From the NCBI GenBank assembly GCA_037444405.1, contig JBBIML010000007.1, positions 1 through 64,000 on the forward strand: DNA of 64,000 nucleotides. The letters are read 5' to 3'. The stretch is from Armatimonadota bacterium (GTDB lineage Bacteria; Armatimonadota; Fimbriimonadia; Fimbriimonadales; GBS-DC). Shown piece after piece: positions 18,062 through 59,928 of this stretch. A program made the position numbers and the translations under genes. Position 1 is the stretch's first letter. The number at the start of each line of letters is the position of its first letter. Under the pieces are notes generated by a model. The model saw nothing but the letters and a program-made list of their open reading frames with translations, had not been told where the DNA came from and ran no database searches.

Positions 18062-18385
18062 CTACCAGCCCGTTTCAGGCTCCCAGTGGCGGCTGGCATA
18101 ATCGGCAAAGGCGAAGGCGAACATAATAATCAGCCAGAAGAAGCCCGCGCCCGCAAACAGCCACGCCAGCTTGCTGCTGAACTTCACATGCATGAAGTTC
18201 AGAATCACTATCGTCGCCTTGCTGACGGCAATCGTCAGCGCGACCGCAATGCCAAACCAGTCAGGCATCTTCTGAAAGCCTGCCCACACCGTCACCACCA
18301 GCAGCGCCATCAGCACCCAGAGCGTCTTCGCGTAGAACGAGACGGGTTGCGCATGCGTGTGTTCCTCACGATGATGCTGTGCCAT
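18062..18385 (-). CDS. Cytochrome c oxidase subunit IV
   Basis: Small 3-TM protein with KA.....FMH motif; last gene of the operon. Confidence 0.8.
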   Translation of the reverse strand: MAQHHREEHTHAQPVSFYAKTLWVLMALLVVTVWAGFQKMPDWFGIAVALTIAVSKATIVILNFMHVKFSSKLAWLFAGAGFFWLIIMFAFAFADYASRHWEPETGW

Positions 18386-18386
18386 C

Positions 18387-19148
18387 CTATTGACCTCCCA
18401 TCAGATAGAGTAGCGGGAACAGGAAAATCCACACGATGTCCACGAAGTGCCAGTAGAGTCCTGTCATCTCCACAGGCATATAGTCGGCGTGTGGCACCTT
18501 GCGTTTCCAGTCCATATAGGCGCGCGCCGCCAGAATCGACAGAACAATAATGCCCACCAGCACATGCAGCCCGTGCAGACCCGTCATGATGAAGTAGAAG
18601 CTGAAGAAGAGCTTGGTGCGCCCTTCGAACTCCTCCAGCGGCACCTTGCGCGCACCCAGATCCACCATGCCGTTCTCCACCTTCAGATGGTTGTGGTGGA
18701 TGACCTCCTCCGCACTGTAGCTCTGATTCGGAATCAGGTTGTGATGGTACTTGGCGGAGTATTCGAAGTATTTATTCACCATAAAGATGCTGGCGAAGAA
18801 GATTGTCCACAGCAGGTATTTGAGCTGTTTGTGGTGTTTCTGTTGCATGGCGGCGCGCACGGCGCGTGCCATCGTGTAGCTGCTGACCAGCAGCACGAAG
18901 GTGTTGAGCGCTCCGAACGGCACGCTCAGCGTGTGGTGCGCTGCGACGAACTCGTAGAGGTACTTGAAGCGATAGATGGCATAGCTGGCGAACAGTCCGC
19001 CGAAGAACAGCACTTCCTGCACGATGAACGCCCACATGCCAATCGTGTAGGCGTCGTTCTGCTGTTCTATCGTTTCGTACTGTTCGCCCAGGTGCGGCAC
19101 TTCGTGCCGCGCTTCGCCCAGATGCAGTTCAGCCTCTTTGACGCTCAC
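18387..19148 (-). CDS. coxC: Cytochrome c oxidase subunit III
   Basis: [40 protein letters not shown]. Confidence 0.9.
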
Positions 19149-48120: not shown

Positions 48121-49329
48121 ATGGACTTCACACTGAGCGAAGAGCATCTGATGGTGCGCGACACCGTGCGCCGCTTCGTGGAAAACGAGGTCAAGCCCTT
48201 CATTCGCGAGTGGGATCGGCACGGTGCCGACCCCAAAGTGTATGCGCGAATGGCGGAGCTGGGGCTGCTGGGAATCTGCATCCCGCGTCGATGGGGCGGC
48301 GCCGGGCTGGACTATATCAGTCTCGGCATCGCCTGCGAGGAGCTGGAGTATGGCGATACCTTCCTGCGCGTGATTATGTCGGTGCATGTGGGGCTGACCG
48401 CGCTCACGATCCTCTCGTGGGGCACCGAGGAGCAGAAGGAGCGGTTCCTGCGCCCGCAGGCGACGGGGCAGCGGCTGGGCGCCTTCTGCCTCACCGAGCC
48501 GAACGCGGGCAGCGATGTCGCCGGCATGCAATCCATCGCCCGACGCGAGGGCGATCACTACATTCTCAACGGCGAGAAAATCTGGATTTCGCTGGCGGAG
48601 GTCGCCGACCAGTACCTGGTGGTCGCCTGGACCGATCTGGAGAAGAAGGCGCGGCGGGATCATTCGGGCATGAGCGCGTTCATCGTAGAGCGCGAGCGCG
48701 ATGGCGTGAAGCCCTACACCCTGCACGGCAAGCTGGGCGTGCGCGCGGGCAACACGGGCGGCGTCGTGTTCGAAAATGTCGCCGTGCCCGTCGAGAACCG
48801 CCTCGGCGAGGAGGGCGAGGGCTTCAAAATCGCCATGTTCGCGCTCGATCAGGGGCGCTACACCGTCGCGGCAGGCTCCGCCGGGCTGATCCGCGCCTGC
48901 CTCGACGAATCGGTGCGCTACGCCCGCGAGCGCAAAACCTTCGGCAAGCCCCTCGCCGAGCATCAGCTCATCAAACAGAAAATCGCGCAGATGGCTGCCG
49001 ACTACGAGATCAGCGTGCTGCTGTATCAGAAGGTCGGCTGGATGAAAAATCGGGGTCTGCGCAACACGCGGGAGACCTCGCTGGCGAAATGGTACGCGAC
49101 GGAGGCGGCGCAGCGGGCGGCGAACGCCGCCGTGCAGATTTTCGGTTCCTACGGCTTCTCCGACGAGTACCCGGTGGAGCGCTTCTACCGCAACAGCAAG
49201 GGTGCCACCATCTACGAGGGCACCTCCGAGATTCATACCCTGCTCCAGGCAGACTACGCGCTGGGCTACCGCGTCGATAAGCCGTTGCGGGTCAATCTCC
49301 CGCCCTATCCGTTTGCTGAGGATCAGTGA
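48121..49329 (+). CDS. Acyl-CoA dehydrogenase (glutaryl-CoA-DH-like clade)
   Basis: [36 protein letters not shown]. Confidence 0.9.
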
Positions 49330-49342
49330 AAGCGTGCACGCG

Positions 49343-49423
49343 CCGAAAAATAAGAAACCGCCCTGAAGGGTGAGCCTTCAGGGCGGTTGGGTTATCATTC
49401 GGGCACCGACCTATCTTCCCGCT
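49343..49423. repeat. 81-bp direct repeat, copy 1 (rrn terminator plus last 26 nt of 5S rRNA)
   Basis: Identical to 57084-57164. Confidence 0.92.
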
Positions 49424-49671
49424 TTATGGGAGTGTCGAGGCGTCGTGGGAGGCAGTGATTACAGGTTCGAAGCAGCTGGGAGGCAAGGAGTTGAAAATCT
49501 AATGCAAAGACACTTAGCGCGACGAACCAGTTTGCGGAAATTGGGGCGCCTTTGTGGAGACTCCGATTCTGGAAAGGCGGCTATGCTGGAAAGCTGAGTT
49601 AAGTGCCTCTATGACCGAGCAAGTCGAGGTATAATTGTGTCAACAAGCCCAATTCTGGTGGGGATGCACCA

Positions 49672-50712
49672 ATGATTTGTAAGTGGTGTGGACTGGAGAC
49701 AACAAACTCGCAGGTCTGCGATTGGTGTAAGCGGCATCCGCTGGGTGAGAACCCTGCACTTACTCTGCAGCGTGAAGCCGCTCTCGCACGCAGGCAGCGC
49801 GAAGCACTTGTCCAAGAATTGCTCCCCAGAATTGAGCAACTGCTCGACGCTTATGCTTCCGATGGCTTGCTTACTTTTGAGGAGGAAGATCAGATTATAG
49901 CGATTGTTCAACAGTACAACCTGACTGCCCAAGAGCTTAGCCCGATTCTCCCTAAATGGAACAAACTGCGGTTGCTTCGAAGCATCTTCTTTGGCAACTT
50001 GCCGCAGCAAACCGAAAATGTACCTGTTTTCCTCAAAACTGGAGAGATATGCCACTGGATTACCCCCACGACGCTCTATGAAGAGCGTACACGGCGTGCC
50101 TACTATGGCGGTGGACCCGGCATAAGTATCCGGTTGGGTAAGGGGGTAAGGTTATGCCTTAGCGGGGGCTACCGCACTTCCATCCCGATCTATGAGGTGG
50201 CTGAGCTTGATAGCGGAACATTGGTAATCACCTCTGAGCGACTGGCTTTTCTGGGTTCGCGGCGTACTTTGGAGAAGCCGTTGAAAAAGATTGTTTCTGT
50301 ACTGCCCTACTCGGACGGGGTTCAGGTTCATTTCTCGAACCGCCAGAAGGCAGCATGTTTCAAGGTGGACGATGCTGACTTAGTGGCAGCAATCCTCTAT
50401 CAAGCCTGCCAGTTCCTTGATATGCCGCGCGCGTTCAGGCTCACTGTGCTCTTTACAGGCGGCATGTCTCAGGATGTTGTCGTGCCCAGCCAAGGACTCA
50501 CTATTGGGAGAGAGCGTGAAAATGACCTTGTGATTAACGAACCCGCTGTCAGTAGACACCATGCTCGGATTGCAATAGAGAAAAATCAACTGGTGTTATA
50601 CGACCTCAACAGCACTAACGGCTCGTTTGTAAACGGCAAGCGTATAACGAAAGCGGTGTTGCAACCTGGTGATGTGGTGCAGATAGGGAGCGCGCTCATC
50701 AAAGTGAAGTAG
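49672..50712 (+). CDS. Zinc-ribbon / unknown central domain / FHA domain protein
   Basis: N-terminal CxxC..CxxC; C-terminal FHA (IGR, VSRHHA, DLNSTNGSFVNG, GD). Confidence 0.75.
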   Translation: MICKWCGLETTNSQVCDWCKRHPLGENPALTLQREAALARRQREALVQELLPRIEQLLDAYASDGLLTFEEEDQIIAIVQQYNLTAQELSPILPKWNKLRLLRSIFFGNLPQQTENVPVFLKTGEICHWITPTTLYEERTRRAYYGGGPGISIRLGKGVRLCLSGGYRTSIPIYEVAELDSGTLVITSERLAFLGSRRTLEKPLKKIVSVLPYSDGVQVHFSNRQKAACFKVDDADLVAAILYQACQFLDMPRAFRLTVLFTGGMSQDVVVPSQGLTIGRERENDLVINEPAVSRHHARIAIEKNQLVLYDLNSTNGSFVNGKRITKAVLQPGDVVQIGSALIKVK

Positions 50713-50759
50713 CCTCTGATGCCATAGCGGTTGAGTGCAACCAGCGCCCACCAGATTTA

Positions 50760-53700
50760 CTATTTTATCGCACTTAGCTTATCCAGCAACTTCTGGATGT
50801 AGTCCGCTTTCTCCATGAAGAGGATATGGTGTGCTTCAAACTCCTCTTTGGAATGCTTCCCTGTGCCAAAAGTGCGCTGAATCTCCTTGAAGGGGCTGGT
50901 GGAGAGGATGAACGAGGTCAGGAATACACGCTTGCCATCCGTTGGGGGCAGATTCGTGCCCATCCCCTCCAGCTCCTGATGGAGGCGAATCTTGGGGTCG
51001 TTGAAGCCGCCCCGCGCCATGCGCAACCCATGGGGGTCGATGAAGGCAATCCGTTGAGAGCGGTCGTCAACAACCCACAGGATGAAGTCGGGATAGAACG
51101 CTTCGCCGTGTCGCGAGTCGAAAAAGCCGATGCCCTTGCCTCGCGTCAGATTCCGCAACAGAAAAATTTGTTTTCCGTTGAAGCAGCGCGCGTTTTTCTG
51201 CAGATAGTCGCGCAGGTCGCGCACAAACTGCGCCTCGTTTGCGTCCAGTCCTGGGGGCGTCATGGAGTCGATTCGCTCGTCTGCCAGCAAGAGTGGGAGA
51301 TAGAGATGCCTGTCAAAGTGGATATGCGGAAAGTCCTGCGCCTCTTGCTGGTAGAGCCGATCCGCCTGATTCAGAAGCTCCTGAATGCGCTCCAGAAACT
51401 CCTGACGGGTTTTCGCAATCCTGAGCGTATATTGCGGTGGGGCGCTCCAGCAAAGGTTGGGGTCGTCATCAGTAAGCGGGGCGAGCTCCAGGTTCTGGCG
51501 CTCCCACTCGCGGCGTTTGCGGTCGTAAAAAGCGGCGAGATACTTTTTCAGCACGCTGAGAGCGATTTCCTCCACACGGCGCAGGTCGGCGAACTGTTTC
51601 GGATTCAGCATCCCCCCAGGGCAGAGAAGCGTATAGTTGCCCGTTTCCAGAATCTCACACAGGGTCGCCTGAGTGAAACTGAGATTGGGCATGCCTTTCA
51701 GCCGACGGAATTCTAACATTTCCAGATAGATGCGCTCCCAATTGAGCAGGGGCGCCAGTTTTTTGAGCGTGTCCGCCTGATTCGCGCCGCCCGCGCGTTC
51801 TATGCGCTCGCTCTCCTGCCCCGACTGCAGGCTCTCGATGCGCGGGCGCAGGTCAAGGCTCACCGTGAGGGATTCGTCGCACGCCAGCACCACGATGCAA
51901 TCGTCCTCGAAGCGTTTTCCCCTGGGCAGGCGCGGCGCATGGAGATTGTGTTTGAGAAAGTCGGTCTGTACCTGAACGGGAATGCGAACCTCCTCAAAAT
52001 CGGTTTCAATCCCCTCCTGTTTGAGGTATTCACGGAACTGCGCCATATAGTTGGCGCGGACGCCGAACACATTCAGCGTCTCCAGCAGGTGAATGTTGCG
52101 CGGGGCGTCGGCGGCGTTCAGCGCCTGACTGCGTTTGAGCGAGCGGTCTTTGCCCCACAGGCGAACCCCGCGCCCAAAGAGCTGGATAATCTGCGAACCC
52201 TCGCCCTTGCCGATGTTCATCAGCCCCATGCTGGACACACGAAAGCTATCCCATCCCTCCATGAACTTGCGCGAGCCAATCAGAATGTTCACAGGCGAAT
52301 CGGGGTCGTTGATGCGTTCGAACAACGAGCGAGCGATGTTCTCTTCTGTGCAGGCAATCCCCTGAGCAGCGATTCGCTTCTTTAGCCCCGCCACATCGCC
52401 GATGTTAATCACGCCGAAGTAGATCTCTCCTGCCCGCAAGCCAATCTCGCCGGGGGCGTTTTTCAGCTCCACCGCTTGCAGGGCGTTGCCCGCCTGGGCA
52501 TGGAACACGCTCTGCAGGATGGCGTCGTAAATCGCATGTCCGTCGGCGCGATACTTCCTGCGCAGGGCGGGAAACCGATTTTGGAACAGGTCGTTGCCGC
52601 TGTTGTCTTTGAGTCCCGACTGCCCGCTGAGGAGATGCACGATTTTCTGGCTCCACTTCTCCCTGTCGCTCAAGAAACGGTGCAAGAATCCCACTATCTC
52701 CTGCACATCGGTCAGGCTCTGTTTATCGTCGCCTGTGTTGCCCCCGTAACGCTGTGCCCGACAAACACCCACAGGGGCTTCTCCACATTAGACGGTCGCA
52801 ACGCCTCGTGGTTCTCGCTGTAGACCATCAACTGCTCGTAAAACGAAAGTAGGTTGCCCAACAGCATCCAATCGTTGAAGGCGTTGTCGGTCGTGCTGGA
52901 CAGGTTGAGAATATAGTAATCTTTGCCATAGCCGTCGTGGTAGAAGTGGGGGTACGAGTAGTCGAACAGGACGGCTTTCGCGTATTCGTTGAGCAGGTCG
53001 CGGCGTTTATTCGGAGCGGCGCCGTTGACAATCTGTCCGAAGGTGGCGCTGTATTCGAAGGTGAAGCCGTTTCGGGCGAGCTTCTCGCGCAGGGAGCGCC
53101 ACACCTCGCCGCTGGCGCCCCGATGCCCCTCGTCCACCAGCAGGAGGTTGTTCGAGCCGAACGATTCCACTGCCACGCTCAGCCCGCCGCCGCGCTTGCT
53201 CTCGGTTAGCTTGGTAATCTCTATCACCCGCACGATGGGCGCGTCGTTTGAGACTCCGAAAAGCCCGCCCTCGGACTCGCTATGATGGCGCGCCGCAATC
53301 CCGCTCTTGCGAAACTCCTCCAGATGCTGGCGCGAAAGCCCCTCGTTCGGCGTAATCAACAGGATGTTATCGTGCGCGACTCTGCCCGCGCTGTAGTGCA
53401 GGTACTGCCACAGGTTGAGATGCATCACCAGCGTCTTACCGCTGCCCGTCGCCATCCAGAAGGCGAGCTTGGTGAGGTCGTTTTCGATGAAGGGGTCTAT
53501 CTCGCGCCAGCCGTTTTCATCCAGAAACCTGTTCAGTGCGTCGAGCAGGGCGTCCCGCTCGTTGAAAAACCTGTCCAGATAGATTTCGGTGAACAGCGCG
53601 GCGAGGTACTGGAAATATTTGAGTTGCACAGGGGGCGTGCGCGTGCGGTTCATTCGCTCCAGGTGCGCTTTGATGTTCAGGTCGTACTGCGCCAGTTTGT

Positions 53701-53929
53701 CTTCGGGGATTGGGGCGTCCTGAATGCCGCGCAGGGCGTAAAAGAAGTGGCTGTGCCCCTCTTCGGTCCAGCCTTCCTGCAGGTCGTGCAATTTCTCGCG
53801 CAGGGTTTTGAAGTCGTCAGCCCCCAGCAGGCGACACAGATAGCGGTTCAGAGCCAGCCTGTGCTGGAGCAGAGGCGTGGAACCTGACTGCCCCACTTTG
53901 CGAGATACCTGCGTCGTCCGCCCAGCCAT
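50760..53929 (-). pseudogene. res: Type III restriction subunit (Res), split by a frameshift at ~52741-52745
   Basis: 5' part has MATGSGKT, VDEGH and YSATF. 3' part has KFMEGWD, QLFGRGVR and FYPDF..IDPHG nuclease motif. Adding one G to a G5 run joins the two frames. Confidence 0.82.
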
Positions 53930-53981
53930 CGCGCTCGTGGTCTGATTATACCTGTCGGGGCGCGGAAAAACGCTCCCGCGC

Positions 53982-56900
53982 TTATTGCGCAGTGCCCCCA
54001 AACATCAACCGTTTGAACTCTGGCTCTATCGGCTGGGCGGTCTCTACGGCGCAGACGCCGTTCACATAGAGCTGGTCGGGGCGCACGCCCTCGCCCAGAA
54101 GCGCGGGCAGGATGGTTTTCTCAATATAGTCTTTATCCGCCTTCAGAGCGGCTTCGTTCTCCCTCAGTTCCTTCAGCGGGCGCCACACGACCACAATCCG
54201 CCTGCCCCCCTTCTCGCCCAGCACGGCGCGATAGGGACGACCGCCGTTTTCAAACGCCCGCATGCGCCTGACCTCCAGCCCCAGCAGGTAGTTGAAGGTC
54301 TCCACCAGGTCCACGGGGTGTTCCACCAGCGCGTCGCCCTGATAAACTTTCAGTTTGTATTCAAACGGCTCCTCGAACTGCTCTATATCGAGCAGGCTGG
54401 GGCTGCCCTGCGTTTCGAACTCCAGCATATAGCGCAGGAGATACTCATCGCCGAAGGTTTCGAAGGCTTGCTGTCCCTCCTGCTGACGGCGCAGCTCGAG
54501 GTTGTTGAGCGCGTCTTCGTAGGATTCGAGGCGCAGGACTTTGAGGATTCGGGGCGTGCGCTCGATTTCTTCCTGCGTAGGCAGGCGTTTGGGCTTGCCG
54601 TCTTTCCATTCGGGCGCAAACACCACCTTTTTGAGGCGGGCAACCAGCACCGAATCGAAGTAGTCGCCCATCTCCACCAGAATGAACTTGCGCCGCCCGC
54701 CGTCCGCGCGATTGAGATTAATCACCGCGTGCCCCGTCGTGCCAGAGCCTGCGAAGAAGTCGAGGACTGTGGAAAGTGGAGTATTCCATGTTATCAACTC
54801 AACGAGGTGCGAGATAAGTTCAACGGGTTTTGGCGTTCCATAGCTCTTCTCTCCGAACAGCGCCTTGAATGCTTTTGTGCCATCTGCAGAAGTACCCACA
54901 TCACTGAGTAAATTGCCAGGTATCGAGGTCAGTCTCTGCCCCATGCGTATTTTTCGATATACAGTGATTTCACCAGTTTCAGGATCACGAACAAAGTCAA
55001 GATCGCCTTCTTCAAGCATCTTTTTGACCTCTTCTCGCCCGTACCGCCACCTGCCTTCGGAGCCGTCAGGGAGCTTTGGATAAGCATCTCCAAAGGGTGT
55101 CGGAATAGGAAAGTATAAGCTAGGGCGATCTTCGCGGCGTGCCCCTTGTTCTCCCCACTGTCGCAATAACTCTCGCCTGTAAGGGCCTTTCTCATCTTGA
55201 TACGGGCAATTTTCTACGATGCGCTCGGTAGGTTTCAAACCCAGCAAGCTCTCATTTTTGGCTACAAGTTCCACATGCTCGTGGCTAACCTGTATCTTGG
55301 TTCCTGTGCCCCCCTTGCCAGCCCGACTTATCCATACCATCGGTGCAACATAGTTTTGTGCGCCGAAAACATATTCGAGCAGCAGGCGGAGCCGTGGTTG
55401 TTCATTCTCATCTATGTTGATAAAGATTGATCCATCTTCTTCCAAACATTCTCGCGCCAGCGCCAGCCTGTCTGCCATCATGCTGAGCCAGCTGGAGTGC
55501 TGGTAGGCGTCTTTGTATATGAAGTCGTCGCTCCCCGTGTTGTACGGCGGGTCTATATAGATGCACTTGATGCGCTCGCGGTACTTTTCCAGCAGCAGGT
55601 TCAGCGCCTGAAAGTTTTCGCTGTGAATCAGCACGCCGTCAATCGCGTCATCCAGGTCGTCAAACGCTTCCAGCAAGCGCCATTTGAAGTCTTCCGAGAA
55701 GTGGCGGGTGTCCACCACGAGCGTCGGGTGCTGGCGGAGGAAGTCGTGGCTGATTCCCCCGTTGAAGGGGCCCTCATTGCGCAGGAGGTCGTCCAGCGCG
55801 TACAGCTCGCGCCACTCGTTGATTTGCGCCTCGTTTTGCAGAATCTCATCCCAGAAGCATCCAGGAATCTGCCCAATCGTGATGCAGTAGTCTGTGCGCA
55901 GGATGAATTTCTTCTTCTCGAACAGCTTTTTCTGAAACTCTTCAATCTGGGCGAGGAAGTCGATGATATGGTTGCCGATTTCTCGCATCACGCGCCCGCG
56001 CTGGAGGTGTTGCTGGGCGAGCTGGGCGTCGGGGGCGTTCAGCAGTTCGTCTAACCGCAGGCACTCGCTTTTGATGTAGAACTCCAGCTCACGCTGGAGG
56101 AAGCCGCGCAGGTCTTTGTGAATGAAAAAGTCGCTGGTGTTGCGTCGGGTGAAGCGGGTGAGGTGTTTGAGCAATCGTGCTGGTTCGCCGTCGCGTTCCG
56201 CCTGTTGCAGGAGCGCGCGTAGCGTTGGGTCGGGAACCTGCTCTATAATCGTGCGCGCTATCTCCTCGTTGAGTTTCTCCTGCGGCTTTTGTTGTTCGGT
56301 GCTGCCATAGATTTTTTGCTCGTCTTCCGTGAGCGGGCGGTACTCGAAAAAGCAGGTGAGGGTGTTGGTACTGGCATTCCAGACGACGGGCTGTTTGCTT
56401 GCAAGGATGAAGTAGCGTTTCTCGCCGCGGTTGTTGTTCTGCTCGGTGGAGGCGTTGCGCAGTTCGAAGGCAACCGAGTAGCCGTTGCAGAGGAAGCGGT
56501 AGTTTTTGAGGCGTTCGCCCGTTTTGATGTAATACTGGTCTTTCGTTGCCCAGTGGAGCATCACCTCTTCGCCGTTGTAGGGGACGGCGTAGGTTTCGTG
56601 GCGTCCGTAGCGGCGTTTGGAAATAAAGTCGCCGTCTTCGTAGTAGCGTGCGAAGAAGTTGTAGAGGTCGTTGTAGACGCGGATTTTGAGGTCTTCGCTG
56701 ACCTGGTACTGGGCGCGTTGTTCCAGCAGGAGTGTGTATTGCTGACCCAGTTTCGTATTGTGGTAGTTGCGCAGGTTGCCCTGCTCGTCGAGGGCGTGTT
56801 CGCCGAAAACCTTGCGGATTTCCTCTCTGGCGTTCTGGAGTTCCTGTTCCAGTCTATTGCGTTCTGTTTCGGCGTAGGAGGCGAACGCCTCGTCGACAAT

Positions 56901-57044
56901 CTGGGGCAGGCGCTGGGTGATGAACTGTTCGATCTGCTCGCGTTTGTAGTTGAGGATGCGGTAGATGCCGAAGTCCAGCTCGGCGCCATCGAACTGGAAC
57001 AGTCGGCGCAGCAGTTCCTGAAATCTGCTCAGGGCGTTTTCCAT
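53982..57044 (-). CDS. mod: Type III restriction-modification methyltransferase (Mod)
   Basis: YIDPPYNTG, central target-recognition domain, LDFFAGSGTT (beta class). SD precedes MENALS. Confidence 0.9.
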   Translation of the reverse strand: MENALSRFQELLRRLFQFDGAELDFGIYRILNYKREQIEQFITQRLPQIVDEAFASYAETERNRLEQELQNAREEIRKVFGEHALDEQGNLRNYHNTKLGQQYTLLLEQRAQYQVSEDLKIRVYNDLYNFFARYYEDGDFISKRRYGRHETYAVPYNGEEVMLHWATKDQYYIKTGERLKNYRFLCNGYSVAFELRNASTEQNNNRGEKRYFILASKQPVVWNASTNTLTCFFEYRPLTEDEQKIYGSTEQQKPQEKLNEEIARTIIEQVPDPTLRALLQQAERDGEPARLLKHLTRFTRRNTSDFFIHKDLRGFLQRELEFYIKSECLRLDELLNAPDAQLAQQHLQRGRVMREIGNHIIDFLAQIEEFQKKLFEKKKFILRTDYCITIGQIPGCFWDEILQNEAQINEWRELYALDDLLRNEGPFNGGISHDFLRQHPTLVVDTRHFSEDFKWRLLEAFDDLDDAIDGVLIHSENFQALNLLLEKYRERIKCIYIDPPYNTGSDDFIYKDAYQHSSWLSMMADRLALARECLEEDGSIFINIDENEQPRLRLLLEYVFGAQNYVAPMVWISRAGKGGTGTKIQVSHEHVELVAKNESLLGLKPTERIVENCPYQDEKGPYRRELLRQWGEQGARREDRPSLYFPIPTPFGDAYPKLPDGSEGRWRYGREEVKKMLEEGDLDFVRDPETGEITVYRKIRMGQRLTSIPGNLLSDVGTSADGTKAFKALFGEKSYGTPKPVELISHLVELITWNTPLSTVLDFFAGSGTTGHAVINLNRADGGRRKFILVEMGDYFDSVLVARLKKVVFAPEWKDGKPKRLPTQEEIERTPRILKVLRLESYEDALNNLELRRQQEGQQAFETFGDEYLLRYMLEFETQGSPSLLDIEQFEEPFEYKLKVYQGDALVEHPVDLVETFNYLLGLEVRRMRAFENGGRPYRAVLGEKGGRRIVVVWRPLKELRENEAALKADKDYIEKTILPALLGEGVRPDQLYVNGVCAVETAQPIEPEFKRLMFGGTAQ

Positions 57045-57083
57045 CGTTGCCTCCTCTCTTTTGATTTTACCTGCGGCGTGCCA

Positions 57084-57164
57084 CCGAAAAATAAGAAACC
57101 GCCCTGAAGGGTGAGCCTTCAGGGCGGTTGGGTTATCATTCGGGCACCGACCTATCTTCCCGCT
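57084..57164. repeat. 81-bp direct repeat, copy 2
   Basis: Identical to 49343-49423; overlaps the intact 5S gene. Confidence 0.92.
57087..57129 (-). terminator. rrn operon terminator
   Basis: AACCGCCCTGAAGG-CTCAC-CCTTCAGGGCGGTT followed by TCTTATTTTT on the minus strand. Confidence 0.85.
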
Positions 57165-57256
57165 CCGTTGCCAGAGCAGTATTTTCGGCGCTGGAGGGCT
57201 TAACGGCCGTGTTCGGGATGGGAACGGGTGTTGCCCCTCCGCTATGGGCACCCGAA
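57139..57256 (-). rRNA. rrf: 5S rRNA
   Basis: CACCCGTTCCCATCCCGAACAC core; terminal helix; ~118 nt. Confidence 0.92.
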
Positions 57257-57440
57257 TGAAAGCGTCGGTGGACAATCGGGCGTTGTGTTCGTCGAGAAGT
57301 GCGTCCAGTGGGCAAGCCCTCGGCCGGTTAGTACGGCTCGGCTCAACGCATTGCTGCGCTTACACGTGCCGCCTATCGACCCGGTCATCTACCGGGGGCC
57401 TTACTCCGTTGACCGGATGGGAGACCTTATCTTGGGGTGG

Positions 57441-57471
<31 letters not shown>

Positions 57472-57604
57472 CCGTCCCGACATGGCTACCCAGCGACTGC
57501 CCCTGGCGGGACAACTGGTACACCAGAGGTCGGTCCAGCCCGGTCCTCTCGTACTAGGGCCAGCTCCCCTCAAGTCTCCTCCGCCTGCGGTGGATAGGGA
57601 CCGA

Positions 57605-58355
57605 CAATCTGTTACTTTCAGCGTCTTTTGGACGCCTACTGACCTTGCCTCTGGCAAGGCGGGTAAGCCTTTCGGCTTACCTCTGCATGTCGCCATGCAG
57701 TTCGGACTGTCTCTTCACCCTGTGGGCTTCAGGGTGTCCGGCGTACAGTCTCTGAGGGTTCCAGATGAGAGTAGATGGTTTTGATATCGATCTTCCGATA
57801 AGCTCCGTTGTCGTTCATGCTCACAGCGATCTGCAGGATTGCTTTGAAGCCTGCAGGCGTGAGATGCTCTCTGTTATGGAGCTTTCGGACAATCGTGGCG
57901 AACTTCTCAAAATCGTGGCGTTTGGTGGTGCGGAGCGGATAGCGCTCAAAGAAGGGGATGACCTTCTCCAAGAGGTCTTTGCGTGATCGCACCACAAACA
58001 CCCAGGTTTTGTCGTTCGGTTTGCGACGGTCGTTCGGCTTCAGGTAGCCGCAACCCAGCGTGTCTCGGATGAGTTCCAGCACGCTCTTGTTTCGTTCGTG
58101 CTGGGAGACATGGAGTTCTGGAATGACCTGCCAGCCCAGTTTCGTACTGGGATTACGCTGGATGGCTACATGAAAGCTGCCTTCGCCGTCCACAAACCCA
58201 GCGATATAGTAGCCCAGACTCTCATCTGGCCTTCCCTGCTGATTGCCTGCACCTGACGCATTGTTACTCATGTGCTGAAGTATAGCACATGAGTAGCGCA
58301 GGATACTAACCAGGCTTCCCAGCATATAGCCGGATTTATAGACAGCACGGTGAGT
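57605..58355 (-). mobile_element. Group I intron after U2604 (E. coli numbering)
   Basis: Exon GAGACAGU|UCGGUCCC; P1 GACAGU/GCUGUC with U.G pair; terminal G; AAUCAGCAGG and AGAGACUG/ACAGUCC core elements. Confidence 0.88.
57729..58271 (-). CDS. LAGLIDADG homing endonuclease (single motif)
   Basis: [23 protein letters not shown]. Start at MSNNASG. Confidence 0.88.
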
Positions 58356-58685: not shown

Positions 58686-59321
58686 TTACCGTTTAGGCAA
58701 TTGCGTTCGTGCAGTCGCTGGCAATTTGTAACGCATTTCGGGTATCAGGTACGGTTCAACCAGTTCCAGGAACCCTGGGAGGTTCCGTCCTGGAATGACA
58801 ATCTGATACCCTTCGGCTTGCCGTCGCAGGTACGCTTCCAGTCCAAACCGTTCGGAAAGCAGCTGTGCCAGTCGCTCGACCTCCTCGCGCTGGAACCCCT
58901 GGGTGTTGAACAGCACGGCTTTCGCTTTGGGGTCTTTGAGGGAGCCGTCGTCCATGAACCAGTATGCCAGGCTACGGGGTTTCAGCCAGCGATGAAGCAG
59001 AGGTGGCACGCGCTTGCGCCCCTCGCGATAGAACTGGTGGGCGTAGAATCGGAAGGCGCCGTGGCTGACGGTCTGGAACCACCAGTTGCCGTTCGATTTC
59101 TGCTGGGGTGGTGTGAGAACCCATTCCTGGAAGAGCTGATAGAGGTGCTGCACATAGGCAGCGTGCGTGGCGCCCTGTTCGATTTTGAGGCGATAGGTGC
59201 GTCCGCGATTGTGCGTTTCCAGGTGGGCATCGCCCAGCAGGATTCCCACCAGCACCTCACGCTGGATGGGCGTGAGCTTGAGTTGCTGTTTATCGGTTTC
59301 GATGGCGCGTGTGTGTGCCAT
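58686..59321 (-). CDS. LAGLIDADG_2 family homing endonuclease (double motif)
   Basis: VGILLGDA and LAYWFMDDG; strong SD AAGGAGGT; stop codon lies in the 3' exon. Confidence 0.88.
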   Translation of the reverse strand: MAHTRAIETDKQQLKLTPIQREVLVGILLGDAHLETHNRGRTYRLKIEQGATHAAYVQHLYQLFQEWVLTPPQQKSNGNWWFQTVSHGAFRFYAHQFYREGRKRVPPLLHRWLKPRSLAYWFMDDGSLKDPKAKAVLFNTQGFQREEVERLAQLLSERFGLEAYLRRQAEGYQIVIPGRNLPGFLELVEPYLIPEMRYKLPATARTQLPKR

Positions 59322-59625
59322 AGCGACCTCCTTCGTCTGCGACGGACTGCACGCCTCCTGTGGGGAGGCTTCCGGTCGCCCGGAAGTTCAGACTGTCTCA
59401 CCATCCACGCAAGGTGGATGCTCGGCGTACAGTCGTTGAGGGGTCACGAGGACTTCCCTGCTGATTGTCCGCACCAGTCGCATTTTCAGTGGCGCAGGCG
59501 CCACTAGCGCTGGATGCTGCACCCCTTCCTCAAAGCACGGAGGTGCGGCTTTGAGTGAGGGGACGGACTTCCCAGCATATAGCCGAGTTTGCCTCCGATG
59601 TTGCCATCGGAGCGCCCCACTGTTG
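58698..59625 (-). mobile_element. Group I intron after U2262 (E. coli numbering)
   Basis: Exon GGGGCGGUCGCCU|CCUAAAC; P1 CGCCU/GGGCG; terminal G; core elements present. Confidence 0.88.
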
Positions 59626-59928
59626 AGGCGACCGCCCCAGTCAAACTACCCACCTAAGACTGTCTCCGAACCGGCTCACGGTTCGGGTTAGCACTTCAGC
59701 AGACCAAGGGTGGTGTTCCATTGACGCCGAAGCTCCCACCTACGCTCTACATGATCTGCCAAAATGCAATCTCAGGCTGTAGTAAAGCTCCATAGGGTCT
59801 TTCCGTCCCACCGCAGGTAACCCGCATCTTCACGGGTAGTACAGTTTCACCGAGAGTCCCGCTGAGACAGTGGCCCAGTCGTTACGCTTTTCGTGCGGGT
59901 CGGAATTTACCCGACAAGGAATTTCGCT

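What the first reader, a model, noticed from the sequence alone, without database searches (positions are those of the whole stretch)
49343..57164. Defence island inserted at the 5S rRNA 3' end, flanked by an exact 81-bp direct repeat, with no integrase
Seen: 49343-49423 is identical to 57084-57164. The repeat holds the last 26 nt of the 5S gene, the spacer and the rrn terminator. Between the copies lie only an FHA protein and a type III res/mod pair. Known: an intact RNA gene on one side and a displaced 3' fragment on the other is the attL/attR layout of tRNA/tmRNA-targeting elements. 5S rRNA is not a usual target. Inference: this is either a satellite or decayed element mobilised in trans by a 5S-specific recombinase, or a variable cargo slot downstream of rrn exchanged by recombination using rRNA homology.
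Basis: partly seen in the sequence, partly recalled or inferred. Interest (0 to 1): 0.82.

Follow-up and report, generated by a model that had tools for sequence, protein, structure and literature searches.

The report
Recombination scar beside the 5S gene
The exact 81-base repeat next to the 5S rRNA gene is real, but it looks like a one-off recombination scar around a patchwork of borrowed genes, not the footprint of a mobile element that targets 5S rRNA.

Summary
The 81-bp exact direct repeat (49343-49423 = 57084-57164) is confirmed. It occurs only twice in the 2.68-Mb assembly. It holds the last 26 nt of the single 5S gene, a 9-nt spacer, the rrn terminator hairpin and its T-run.

The attL/attR reading does not hold. 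The inner border of the left copy (49423|49424) abuts the last 94 bp of an IS630-family (DDE_3) element. That element is cut off inside its transposase gene exactly at this border, so the border is an illegitimate join, not an element arm.

The 7.66 kb between the copies is a mosaic:
- the IS relic;
- a rare FHA-domain gene;
- a type III res/mod cassette, 94% identical to one in another genus, with the similarity ending at the gene borders; res is split by a 1-nt deletion.

None of 16 other 5S loci in the family carries such a duplication. The genome's tyrosine integrases that look island-borne sit beside tRNA genes. No empty site or circle was seen.

Best reading (about 75% overall): a scar made without any dedicated recombinase. 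Most likely accessory DNA was imported by rrn-anchored homologous recombination plus an illegitimate join, which pushed the old 3' end downstream. A 5S-specific integrase is unlikely (about 8%). Interest is low to moderate.

The parts
48121..49329 (+). Acyl-CoA dehydrogenase gene, left flank. Its stop codon lies 13 nt before the left repeat copy.
   Evidence: Pfam Acyl-CoA_dh_N/M/1. Similarity to the closest relative G002 (95%) ends at the stop codon.
49343..49423 (.). Left copy of the 81-bp repeat: an orphaned rrn 3' end. It holds the T-run tail (49343-49355), the hairpin (49356-49388), the spacer (49389-49397) and the last 26 nt of 5S (49398-49423).
   Evidence: 100% identical to 57084-57164. 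Terminator-like on the - strand.
49424..49517 (+). 3' relic of an IS630-family element: the last 26 codons of a DDE_3 transposase, its stop codon and a 15-nt terminal repeat. It is truncated exactly at the repeat border.
   Evidence: 88% identical over 94-95 nt to two copies at contig ends in G009. The G009 end ORF matches PF13358 DDE_3, profile positions 105-146 of 146, at 34.1 bits. 18 of 26 residues are identical.
49672..50712 (+). Gene for a 346-aa protein with a C-terminal FHA domain. Function unknown, no defence-system match, low G+C.
   Evidence: Pfam FHA 5.3e-22. No PADLOC match. Found in 3 of 81 genomes of the order at E<=1e-30 and in 2 of 401 of the phylum sample at E<=1e-40, own genome included. 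G+C 0.50-0.54.
50760..54001 (-). Type III restriction subunit gene (res), split by a 1-nt deletion near 52734 into 52712-54001 (429 aa) and 50760-52772 (670 aa).
   Evidence: The two frames match PADLOC REase_III profile positions 18-322 and 455-1123 of 1154. Alignment with the intact G013 and G009 genes shows the deletion. The run X1 contig shows the same sequence at depth 20.
53982..57044 (-). Type III methyltransferase gene (mod), 1020 aa, intact. It starts 39 nt after the rrn terminator and runs in the same direction as rrn.
   Evidence: Pfam N6_N4_Mtase. PADLOC MTase_III 3.3e-184. 94% identical to G013 on both sides of a central stretch.
54768..55538 (-). Central stretch of mod with no DNA similarity to the G013 or G009 alleles. 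It is probably a swapped target-recognition region.
   Evidence: Gap between the two aligned blocks. Calling it the target-recognition region is my recollection of type III Mod proteins.
57084..57164 (.). Right copy of the repeat: the working rrn terminator plus the 3' end of the intact 5S gene.
57139..57255 (-). The only 5S rRNA gene in the assembly.
   Evidence: Rfam RF00001, 93.9 bits, full length.

Best explanation
The repeat is a recombination scar, not a pair of attachment sites. I propose that accessory DNA from a sister strain entered a genome whose rrn operon ended next to the acyl-CoA dehydrogenase gene. In the donor, the rrn terminator was followed by mod, res, the FHA gene and an IS630-type element. 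One end of the incoming DNA recombined by homology within the rrn operon. The other end, broken inside the IS, was joined illegitimately (1 nt of shared sequence) to the recipient's 5S gene 26 nt before its 3' end. The outcome is an intact 5S gene plus terminator, then the imported genes, then the recipient's old 26 nt of 5S plus terminator pushed 7.7 kb downstream.

This is the pattern of homology-facilitated illegitimate recombination. It also matches the orphaned 3' ends found at Rhs, CDI and T6SS effector loci.

Shown: the repeat itself, the truncated IS at its inner border, the mosaic and lateral origin of the content, the broken res, and the absence of any recombinase or recurrence.

Inferred: the donor arrangement, the order of events, and the uptake route. 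ComEC and DprA genes are present, but they are widespread.

Today the left copy probably serves as the terminator of the acyl-CoA dehydrogenase gene. Mod probably acts as a lone methyltransferase. The two 81-bp copies could let RecA delete the segment.
For: The inner border of the left copy coincides, to within 1 nt, with the truncation point of an IS630-family transposase gene. No full copy of that IS is in G000.

The content is a mosaic. The res/mod cassette is 94% identical to G013 of another genus, whereas the acyl-CoA dehydrogenase gene of that genus's members is 81-85% identical. The cassette similarity ends at 57044 and 50774. The FHA gene is rare. G+C is 0.50-0.62 inside against 0.60-0.66 in the left flank.

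None of 16 other 5S loci has the duplication.

A related strain in run X2 carries the same repeat-IS relic-FHA block with 5 differences in 1402 nt. Its contig then runs on for 843 nt unlike the window after 50744. So strains differ at this very locus.

Gene order around the acyl-CoA dehydrogenase gene differs in 12 of 12 relatives on the downstream side. Rearrangement joints at gene borders are therefore common in this family.

ComEC and DprA homologues are present.

The mechanism is described in the abstract start of PMC3240628 (seen in the search listing) and in passages of PMC5361080.
Against: No donor strain with the proposed arrangement (terminator followed by mod, with an intact IS beyond the FHA gene) was found. 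No empty site was found either.

The donor's 81 bp must have been identical to the recipient's, so the donor was very close kin or the two copies were later homogenised.

Only 1 nt of microhomology lies at the join. As I recall the literature, reported joins usually show 3-8 nt.

The outer border of the repeat falls 3 nt past the terminator T-run. The model explains this only by assuming both strains kept the same operon end.

The right-hand join was not checked with reads.
Confidence: 0.42

Rival explanations
1. Remnant of a second rrn operon. An ancestor had two rrn copies in direct orientation, one ending at the acyl-CoA dehydrogenase gene and one ending at mod. A single illegitimate deletion ran from inside the IS630 element to 26 nt before the end of the second 5S gene. 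It removed that operon and left its last 81 bp.
For: One event explains the direct orientation, the truncated IS at the border and the identity running to the end of the terminator, since rrn copies within a genome are usually kept identical. G015 has two 5S matches.
Against: 17 of the 18 family genomes with a 5S match have just one, including the complete genome G012. In G000 and G001 the rrn operon lies inside a contig. In run X1 the depth over the 23S intron region (23-28) equals that of the flanks. The second 5S of G015 is very different and may be contamination.
Confidence: 0.2
2. Campbell-type insertion of a circle by RecA. A 7.74-kb circle (81 bp + mod-res-FHA-IS relic) formed by an illegitimate loop-out in a sister strain. 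It then integrated by a single homologous crossover within the 81 bp.
For: It gives exactly the observed structure, including flanking repeats as long as the shared segment, and needs no integrase.
Against: It needs two rare steps and transfer of a non-replicating circle. 81 bp is a short substrate. No circle joint was seen (contigs only).
Confidence: 0.12
3. One reading: a decayed or satellite integrative element whose attachment site is the 5S 3' end plus terminator, moved by a recombinase encoded elsewhere.
For: An intact RNA gene on one side and a displaced 3' fragment on the other, in direct orientation, with an 81-bp identity block. The same genome has a classical island with a 79-bp tRNA-Ala repeat, so such elements are active in this lineage.
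Against: There is no recombinase in the interval. The two integrase loci that look island-borne sit beside tRNA-Ala and tRNA-Thr, and the other two PF00589 matches on C26 and C6 have Xer-like lengths. The repeat does not resemble those tRNAs (local alignment scores 7-10). The arm next to the displaced fragment is a transposase gene cut mid-frame. None of 16 other 5S loci is occupied. The repeat hairpin has no exact match in viral or JGI metagenome contigs. The shared mobile unit is the RM cassette alone.
Confidence: 0.08
4. Assembly artefact. This is a metagenome-derived draft, and the repeat could mark a wrong path through the assembly graph: a chromosome with acyl-CoA DH-repeat-5S plus a separate molecule that shares the 81 bp, or a chimeric join at the conserved rrn.
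For: Relatives are titled as metagenome-assembled genomes, and the runs that hold the stretch are metagenomes. The listed contig pieces do not show the mod-repeat-5S join. A k=31 graph cannot tell the integrated form from the separate form.
Against: Depth in run X1 is even across flank, island and 23S introns (about 16-28). The left copy stops inside 5S and continues into the IS relic within single contigs in two runs, and no collapse would create that. At 81 bp the repeat is probably shorter than a read, though the read length of these runs is not on record here.
Confidence: 0.07

Closest known systems
tRNA/tmRNA-targeting genomic islands with a tyrosine integrase
   Same: An intact RNA gene at one end, a displaced 3' fragment at the other, direct repeats of tens of bp, low-G+C accessory cargo.
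   Different: No integrase. The distal arm is a transposase gene truncated at the border. There is no recurrence at other 5S loci. The laterally shared unit is smaller than the repeat-bounded segment. A true example lies in the same genome at G000:C6:13703-19213.
Homology-facilitated illegitimate recombination (abstract start of PMC3240628 in the search listing; the primary papers were not held)
   Same: Foreign DNA is fixed by a homologous anchor at one end and an illegitimate join at the other. No dedicated recombinase is needed.
   Different: Here the process is inferred from the product only. The donor is unknown, and the microhomology is 1 nt.
Orphaned 3' ends at Rhs, CDI and T6SS effector-immunity loci (passages of PMC5361080)
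   Same: A conserved 5' part acts as the anchor. A new module is inserted and the ancestral 3' end is shifted downstream as an orphan.
   Different: The anchor here is an rRNA operon rather than a toxin gene. Only one displaced end is present, not an array.
Type III restriction-modification systems
   Same: An overlapping mod-res pair with strong PADLOC MTase_III and REase_III matches. Distant relatives lie on 25 plasmid records and one Thermus phage.
   Different: res is frameshifted. The central region of mod has been exchanged relative to the 94%-identical allele.

Membership tests
Integrase-type genomic island at an RNA gene | Direct repeats made of the 3' end of the target RNA gene | tested here: met
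   81-bp exact repeat containing the last 26 nt of 5S.
Integrase-type genomic island at an RNA gene | A site-specific recombinase gene inside the island | tested here: not met
   Pfam on the island ORFs gives FHA, ResIII and a methylase only. The four PF00589 matches lie on C4, C37, C26 and C6, and there is no PF00239 match.
Integrase-type genomic island at an RNA gene | Element-specific arms next to both repeat copies | tested here: not met
   The arm at 49424 is the last 94 bp of an IS630-family element, cut inside its transposase gene.
Integrase-type genomic island at an RNA gene | The same site is occupied, or seen empty, in relatives | tested here: not met
   None of 16 other 5S loci in 15 genomes has a second 5S 3' end downstream. 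No relative has acyl-CoA DH next to 5S in this layout. G002 has no assembled rrn.
Integrase-type genomic island at an RNA gene | Excised circle and empty site detectable | tested here: inconclusive
   No such joint in the contigs of 4 runs. Contigs drop rare forms, and raw reads were not available.
Type III restriction-modification system | Mod methyltransferase | tested here: met
   PF01555 at 1.2e-30. PADLOC MTase_III at 3.3e-184.
Type III restriction-modification system | Intact Res subunit | tested here: not met
   A 1-nt deletion splits res into 429-aa and 670-aa frames. The gene is intact at 1088 aa in G013 and 1072 aa in G009. The same sequence appears in the run X1 contig.
IS630-family insertion sequence | DDE_3 transposase gene and two terminal repeats | tested here: not met
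   Only the last 26 codons and one terminal repeat remain. This is a relic, not an element.
Homology-facilitated illegitimate recombination product | Homologous anchor on one side, illegitimate join with little or no homology on the other | tested here: inconclusive
   The join shares 1 nt. The anchor side is by nature indistinguishable from native rrn. No donor is known.

The most novel reading that the evidence does not exclude
The 81 bp is the attachment site of a so-far-unseen family of integrative elements or satellites that target the 5S rRNA 3' end and its terminator, moved in trans by a recombinase absent from this draft. The IS relic at the border would then be a later accident. A milder novel variant: double-strand breaks made by the LAGLIDADG homing endonucleases of the 23S introns, the nearer intron lying 440 bp from the repeat, drive one-sided repair that drags foreign cargo in behind the rrn operon.
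Probability: 0.08. Interest if true: 0.8.

Novelty: new member of a known kind. Interest (0 to 1): 0.28.

Why it matters
The main value is cautionary. An intact RNA gene plus a displaced 3' fragment is widely used as a signature of integrase-borne islands. Here the same picture arises without any integrase, and the truncated IS at the border gives it away. Island-prediction tools that rely on repeats at RNA genes would mis-call this locus.

The locus also documents several points about hot-spring Armatimonadota (relatives of Candidatus Fervidibacter):
- a type III RM cassette moving between genera;
- exchange of the central region of mod;
- loss of restriction while the methyltransferase is kept;
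- gene order that differs on the downstream side in 12 of 12 relatives examined.

If the rrn-anchored import model is right, the single rrn operon of these genomes can act as a landing pad for foreign DNA.

Tried and rejected
Empty site in relatives. 41 genomes were searched with 9.4 kb of the locus, and 12 acyl-CoA DH loci were compared. None has the acyl-CoA DH-5S layout. In G011 the two lie on one contig about 17 kb apart, but the rrn is inverted relative to the window. G002, the closest relative, has no assembled rrn.

CRISPR idea. The 29-nt motif at 49489-49517 recurs in G009, G012 and G000:C13, and I first took it for a CRISPR repeat. It occurs singly at each locus and is the IS terminal repeat. 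Rejected.

Public reads. Only k=31 contigs were available. No empty-site or circle joint appeared in 4 runs. One 'skip' from 48894 to 56784 has a 21-nt side and is treated as spurious. In run X1 the contig starting at 49343 runs through 49423 with no break towards 5S. I put this down to graph cleaning amid very abundant 5S from other organisms. That is my inference, so the right-hand join is unverified.

Wider collections. The repeat hairpin has 0 exact matches in JGI metagenome contigs and in viral contigs. The FHA protein has no relative in either collection. None of the 78 loci around Mod relatives holds an rRNA gene; there was one tRNA-sized match only.

The 80%-identical FHA homologue (P0004) could not be placed in a genome.

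Earlier notes of this scan: none for this place.

A templated-patch model was considered: the 81 bp copied into a rearrangement join during break repair. The flanks show no convincing microhomology, so I left it at about 5-10%.
Full report
OBSERVATION. 49343-49423 and 57084-57164 are identical over 81 nt, and they are the only two copies in the 2.68-Mb, 40-contig assembly. Rfam finds one 5S gene, at 57139-57255 on the - strand. It sits at the end of a 16S-tRNA-tRNA-23S-5S operon and is the only 5S gene in the assembly. In the rrn sense the repeat reads: last 26 nt of 5S, 9-nt spacer, 33-nt hairpin, T-run. The terminator scan picks up both copies. The window is the first 64 kb of a 244,673-bp contig, so the operon is internal to the contig. 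Titles of related records place the organism among hot-spring Armatimonadota near Candidatus Fervidibacter.

WHAT LIES BETWEEN THE COPIES. Reading from the left:
- 49424-49517 is a relic of an insertion sequence.
- 49672-50712 (+) encodes a 346-aa protein with a C-terminal FHA domain. It has no match to any defence-system model.
- 50760-54001 (-) is a type III res gene.
- 53982-57044 (-) is a type III mod gene of 1020 aa, preceded by a GGAGG ribosome-binding site.

res is broken. It reads as 429-aa and 670-aa frames, which match profile positions 18-322 and 455-1123 of one PADLOC REase_III model. Alignment with the intact genes of G013 (1088 aa) and G009 (1072 aa) shows a single missing base near 52734. 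The contig of run X1 has the same sequence at depth 20. G+C is 0.50-0.62 across the interval against 0.60-0.66 in the left flank.

THE KEY FINDING: THE LEFT BORDER IS A TRUNCATED IS. The 94 nt that follow the left repeat copy match two places in G009 at 88% identity. Both places lie 128 nt from a contig end. The two G009 copies are identical to each other up to the motif ending in CACTTAG and then diverge. They carry an open frame whose 68 residues match Pfam DDE_3 (PF13358), the IS630-type transposase family, at profile positions 105-146 of 146, above the curated cut-off. Window 49422-49499 encodes the last 26 residues of that protein, 18 of 26 identical, followed by the stop codon and a 15-nt terminal repeat. 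That terminal motif recurs singly at several places in G009, G012 and G000. G000 has no full copy of the element.

The IS homology therefore begins within 1 nt of the repeat border at 49423|49424. The last 26 nt of a 5S gene are fused to the inside of a transposase gene. That is an illegitimate join. A site-specific integrase would leave the element's own arm there, not another mobile element cut mid-gene at exactly that base.

THE CARGO IS A MOSAIC, NOT ONE ELEMENT. The res/mod cassette is 94% identical to one in G013, a member of another genus, and 83-92% identical to one in G009. The acyl-CoA dehydrogenase gene is only 81-85% identical to that of G013's genus.

The cassette similarity runs from 50774, near the res stop, to 57044, the mod start codon. 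It stops there, 39 nt short of the right repeat copy. It does not include the FHA gene or the IS relic. In G013 and G009 the cassette has other neighbours and no 5S gene nearby. Runs X2, X5 and X6 hold the G013-type context upstream of mod.

A 771-nt central stretch of mod (54768-55538) has no similarity to either allele. From what I recall of type III Mod proteins, this would be an exchanged target-recognition region.

The FHA gene is rare. It is found in 3 of 81 genomes of the order at E<=1e-30; the two others show 42% identity with stop codons inside the match. It is found in 2 of 401 genomes of the phylum sample at E<=1e-40. The protein database holds only a handful of full-length relatives at 73-80% identity.

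Distant res/mod relatives lie on 25 plasmid records and on one Thermus phage. None of 78 loci around Mod relatives holds rRNA genes.

TESTS OF THE INTEGRATIVE-ELEMENT READING.
(a) Recombinases. G000 has four PF00589 matches and no PF00239 match. None is on this part of contig C7. The 377-aa integrase on C37, duplicated on C4, lies beside tRNA-Thr. The one at C6:18200-18685 lies beside tRNA-Ala, inside a 5.4-kb segment flanked by two identical tRNA-Ala copies (79-bp identity). That segment is a textbook island in the same genome and a useful contrast. The 81-bp repeat shows no similarity to these tRNAs.
(b) Recurrence. I took 16 other 5S loci from 15 family genomes, each with 2.8-14.9 kb downstream. 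None has a second copy of its 5S 3' end or terminator. G000 gave the expected 81-nt hit.
(c) Empty site. No relative has the acyl-CoA dehydrogenase gene next to 5S in this layout. G002, at 95% identity, loses similarity at the stop codon and has no assembled rrn. In G001 and G003 the 5S terminator is followed by an AcrB-type gene and a peptidase gene.
(d) Circle or empty-site forms. None was seen in the contigs of 4 runs, but contigs cannot show rare forms.
(e) The repeat hairpin has no exact match in viral or JGI metagenome contigs.

WHAT THE PUBLIC RUNS ADD. Run X1 holds 96% of the sampled words. It covers flank, island and the 23S introns at similar depth, roughly 16-28. This argues for one integrated copy per genome and a single rrn operon. 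Its contigs break at 49343 and 49372, as expected at the outer edge of a repeat.

Run X2 holds a contig with repeat-IS relic-FHA and only 5 differences in 1402 nt. That contig then runs on for 843 nt unlike the window after 50744, just beyond the FHA stop codon. So the Δ5S|ΔIS join is shared by a second strain, and what follows the FHA gene differs between strains. I could not retrieve that contig's sequence.

The mod-repeat-5S join is not covered by the pieces listed. It rests on the assembly.

MECHANISM. Every model must include one illegitimate join between 5S and the IS interior. I favour rrn-anchored import (0.42). DNA from a sister strain with the order 5S-terminator-mod-res-FHA-IS recombined by homology in the rrn operon. 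Its other end, broken in the IS, was joined illegitimately 26 nt before the end of the recipient's 5S gene. This pushed the recipient's old 3' end and terminator downstream.

This is the logic of homology-facilitated illegitimate recombination (abstract start of PMC3240628, seen in the search listing). It is also the logic behind the orphaned 3' ends at Rhs, CDI and T6SS loci (passages of PMC5361080). ComEC and DprA genes are present, though they are widespread.

Rival models:
- Deletion of a second rrn copy (0.20). Against it, 17 of the 18 family genomes with a 5S match have one 5S, including the complete genome G012.
- RecA-mediated insertion of a circle through the 81 bp (0.12).
- A 5S-specific integrase acting in trans (0.08).
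- Assembly error (0.07).

Together, the recombinase-free scar models hold about three quarters of the probability.

One speculative addition. The two LAGLIDADG homing endonucleases of the 23S introns, the nearer intron lying 440 bp from the repeat, could supply the double-strand break that starts such one-sided repair. Nothing here tests that.

FUNCTION TODAY (inferred). The right copy terminates rrn. mod starts 39 nt later on the same strand and may be read from a weak promoter or by read-through. With res broken, Mod is probably a lone methyltransferase. The left copy gives the convergent acyl-CoA dehydrogenase gene a hairpin terminator. The two 81-bp copies could allow rare RecA-dependent loss of the 7.7-kb segment.

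VERDICT. The locus is a new example of a known kind of event. Its main value is as a warning for island prediction and as a record of RM cassette traffic in a poorly known phylum.

LIMITS.
- No raw reads were available.
- Only three other species of the genus were available.
- The donor arrangement is hypothetical.
- The primary HFIR papers were not held. What I say about typical microhomology lengths is recalled.

Noticed in passing
window 57605-58355 and 58698-59624: The 23S rRNA gene carries two insertions that are absent from G001. Each holds a LAGLIDADG homing-endonuclease ORF: 57729-58325 (LAGLIDADG_1) and 58686-59321 (LAGLIDADG_2). The second has an Rfam group I intron match at 59369-59635. 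G011 has matching sequence at both places.
   Followed up: partly
window 57290-57604: The Rfam LSU match ends at 58294, yet comparison with G001 shows about 310 nt more of the 23S 3' exon at 57290-57604, beyond the first intron. The automatic 23S call therefore mis-places the 3' end.
   Followed up: partly
G000:C6:13703-19213: Two identical tRNA-Ala(CGC) genes (79-bp identity) flank about 5.4 kb that holds a tyrosine integrase at 18200-18685, next to the second tRNA. This is a classical integrase island in the same genome.
   Followed up: partly
G000:C37:4005-5237 and C4:1042-1554: A 377-aa tyrosine integrase lies beside tRNA-Thr on C37 and is duplicated on the 1.7-kb contig C4. It is probably a repeated or recently active element.
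   Followed up: no
L010:5110-5285; about 45 places across G000 contigs: A dispersed repeat of about 165 bp, with dozens of copies at 74-88% identity in G000 and many more in G002. One copy lies just beside the RM cassette in G013. It looks like a MITE or REP-type family.
   Followed up: no
L006:2959-3120 (G002, downstream of acyl-CoA DH): A short frame that, from memory, looks like the N-terminus of an IS4/IS5-type transposase. Pfam gave no match, so this is unverified. It would be a second IS relic at the same gene border in the sister species.
   Followed up: no
acyl-CoA DH loci of 12 relatives (L006, L009, L012, L013, L124-L131): Gene order is extremely scrambled. The downstream neighbour of this gene differs from G000 in 12 of 12 genomes, and only G002 shares the upstream neighbour.
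   Followed up: partly
window 49343-50744 in run X2: A second strain or organism, at depth 22, shares the repeat-IS relic-FHA block at 99.6% identity, with a G>C change at 49389. Its contig diverges on the right after 50744 and ends on the left at 49343. The G000-like acyl-CoA DH sequence in that run has a depth of only about 5. It is unresolved whether the 1.4-kb block is itself shared laterally.
   Followed up: no
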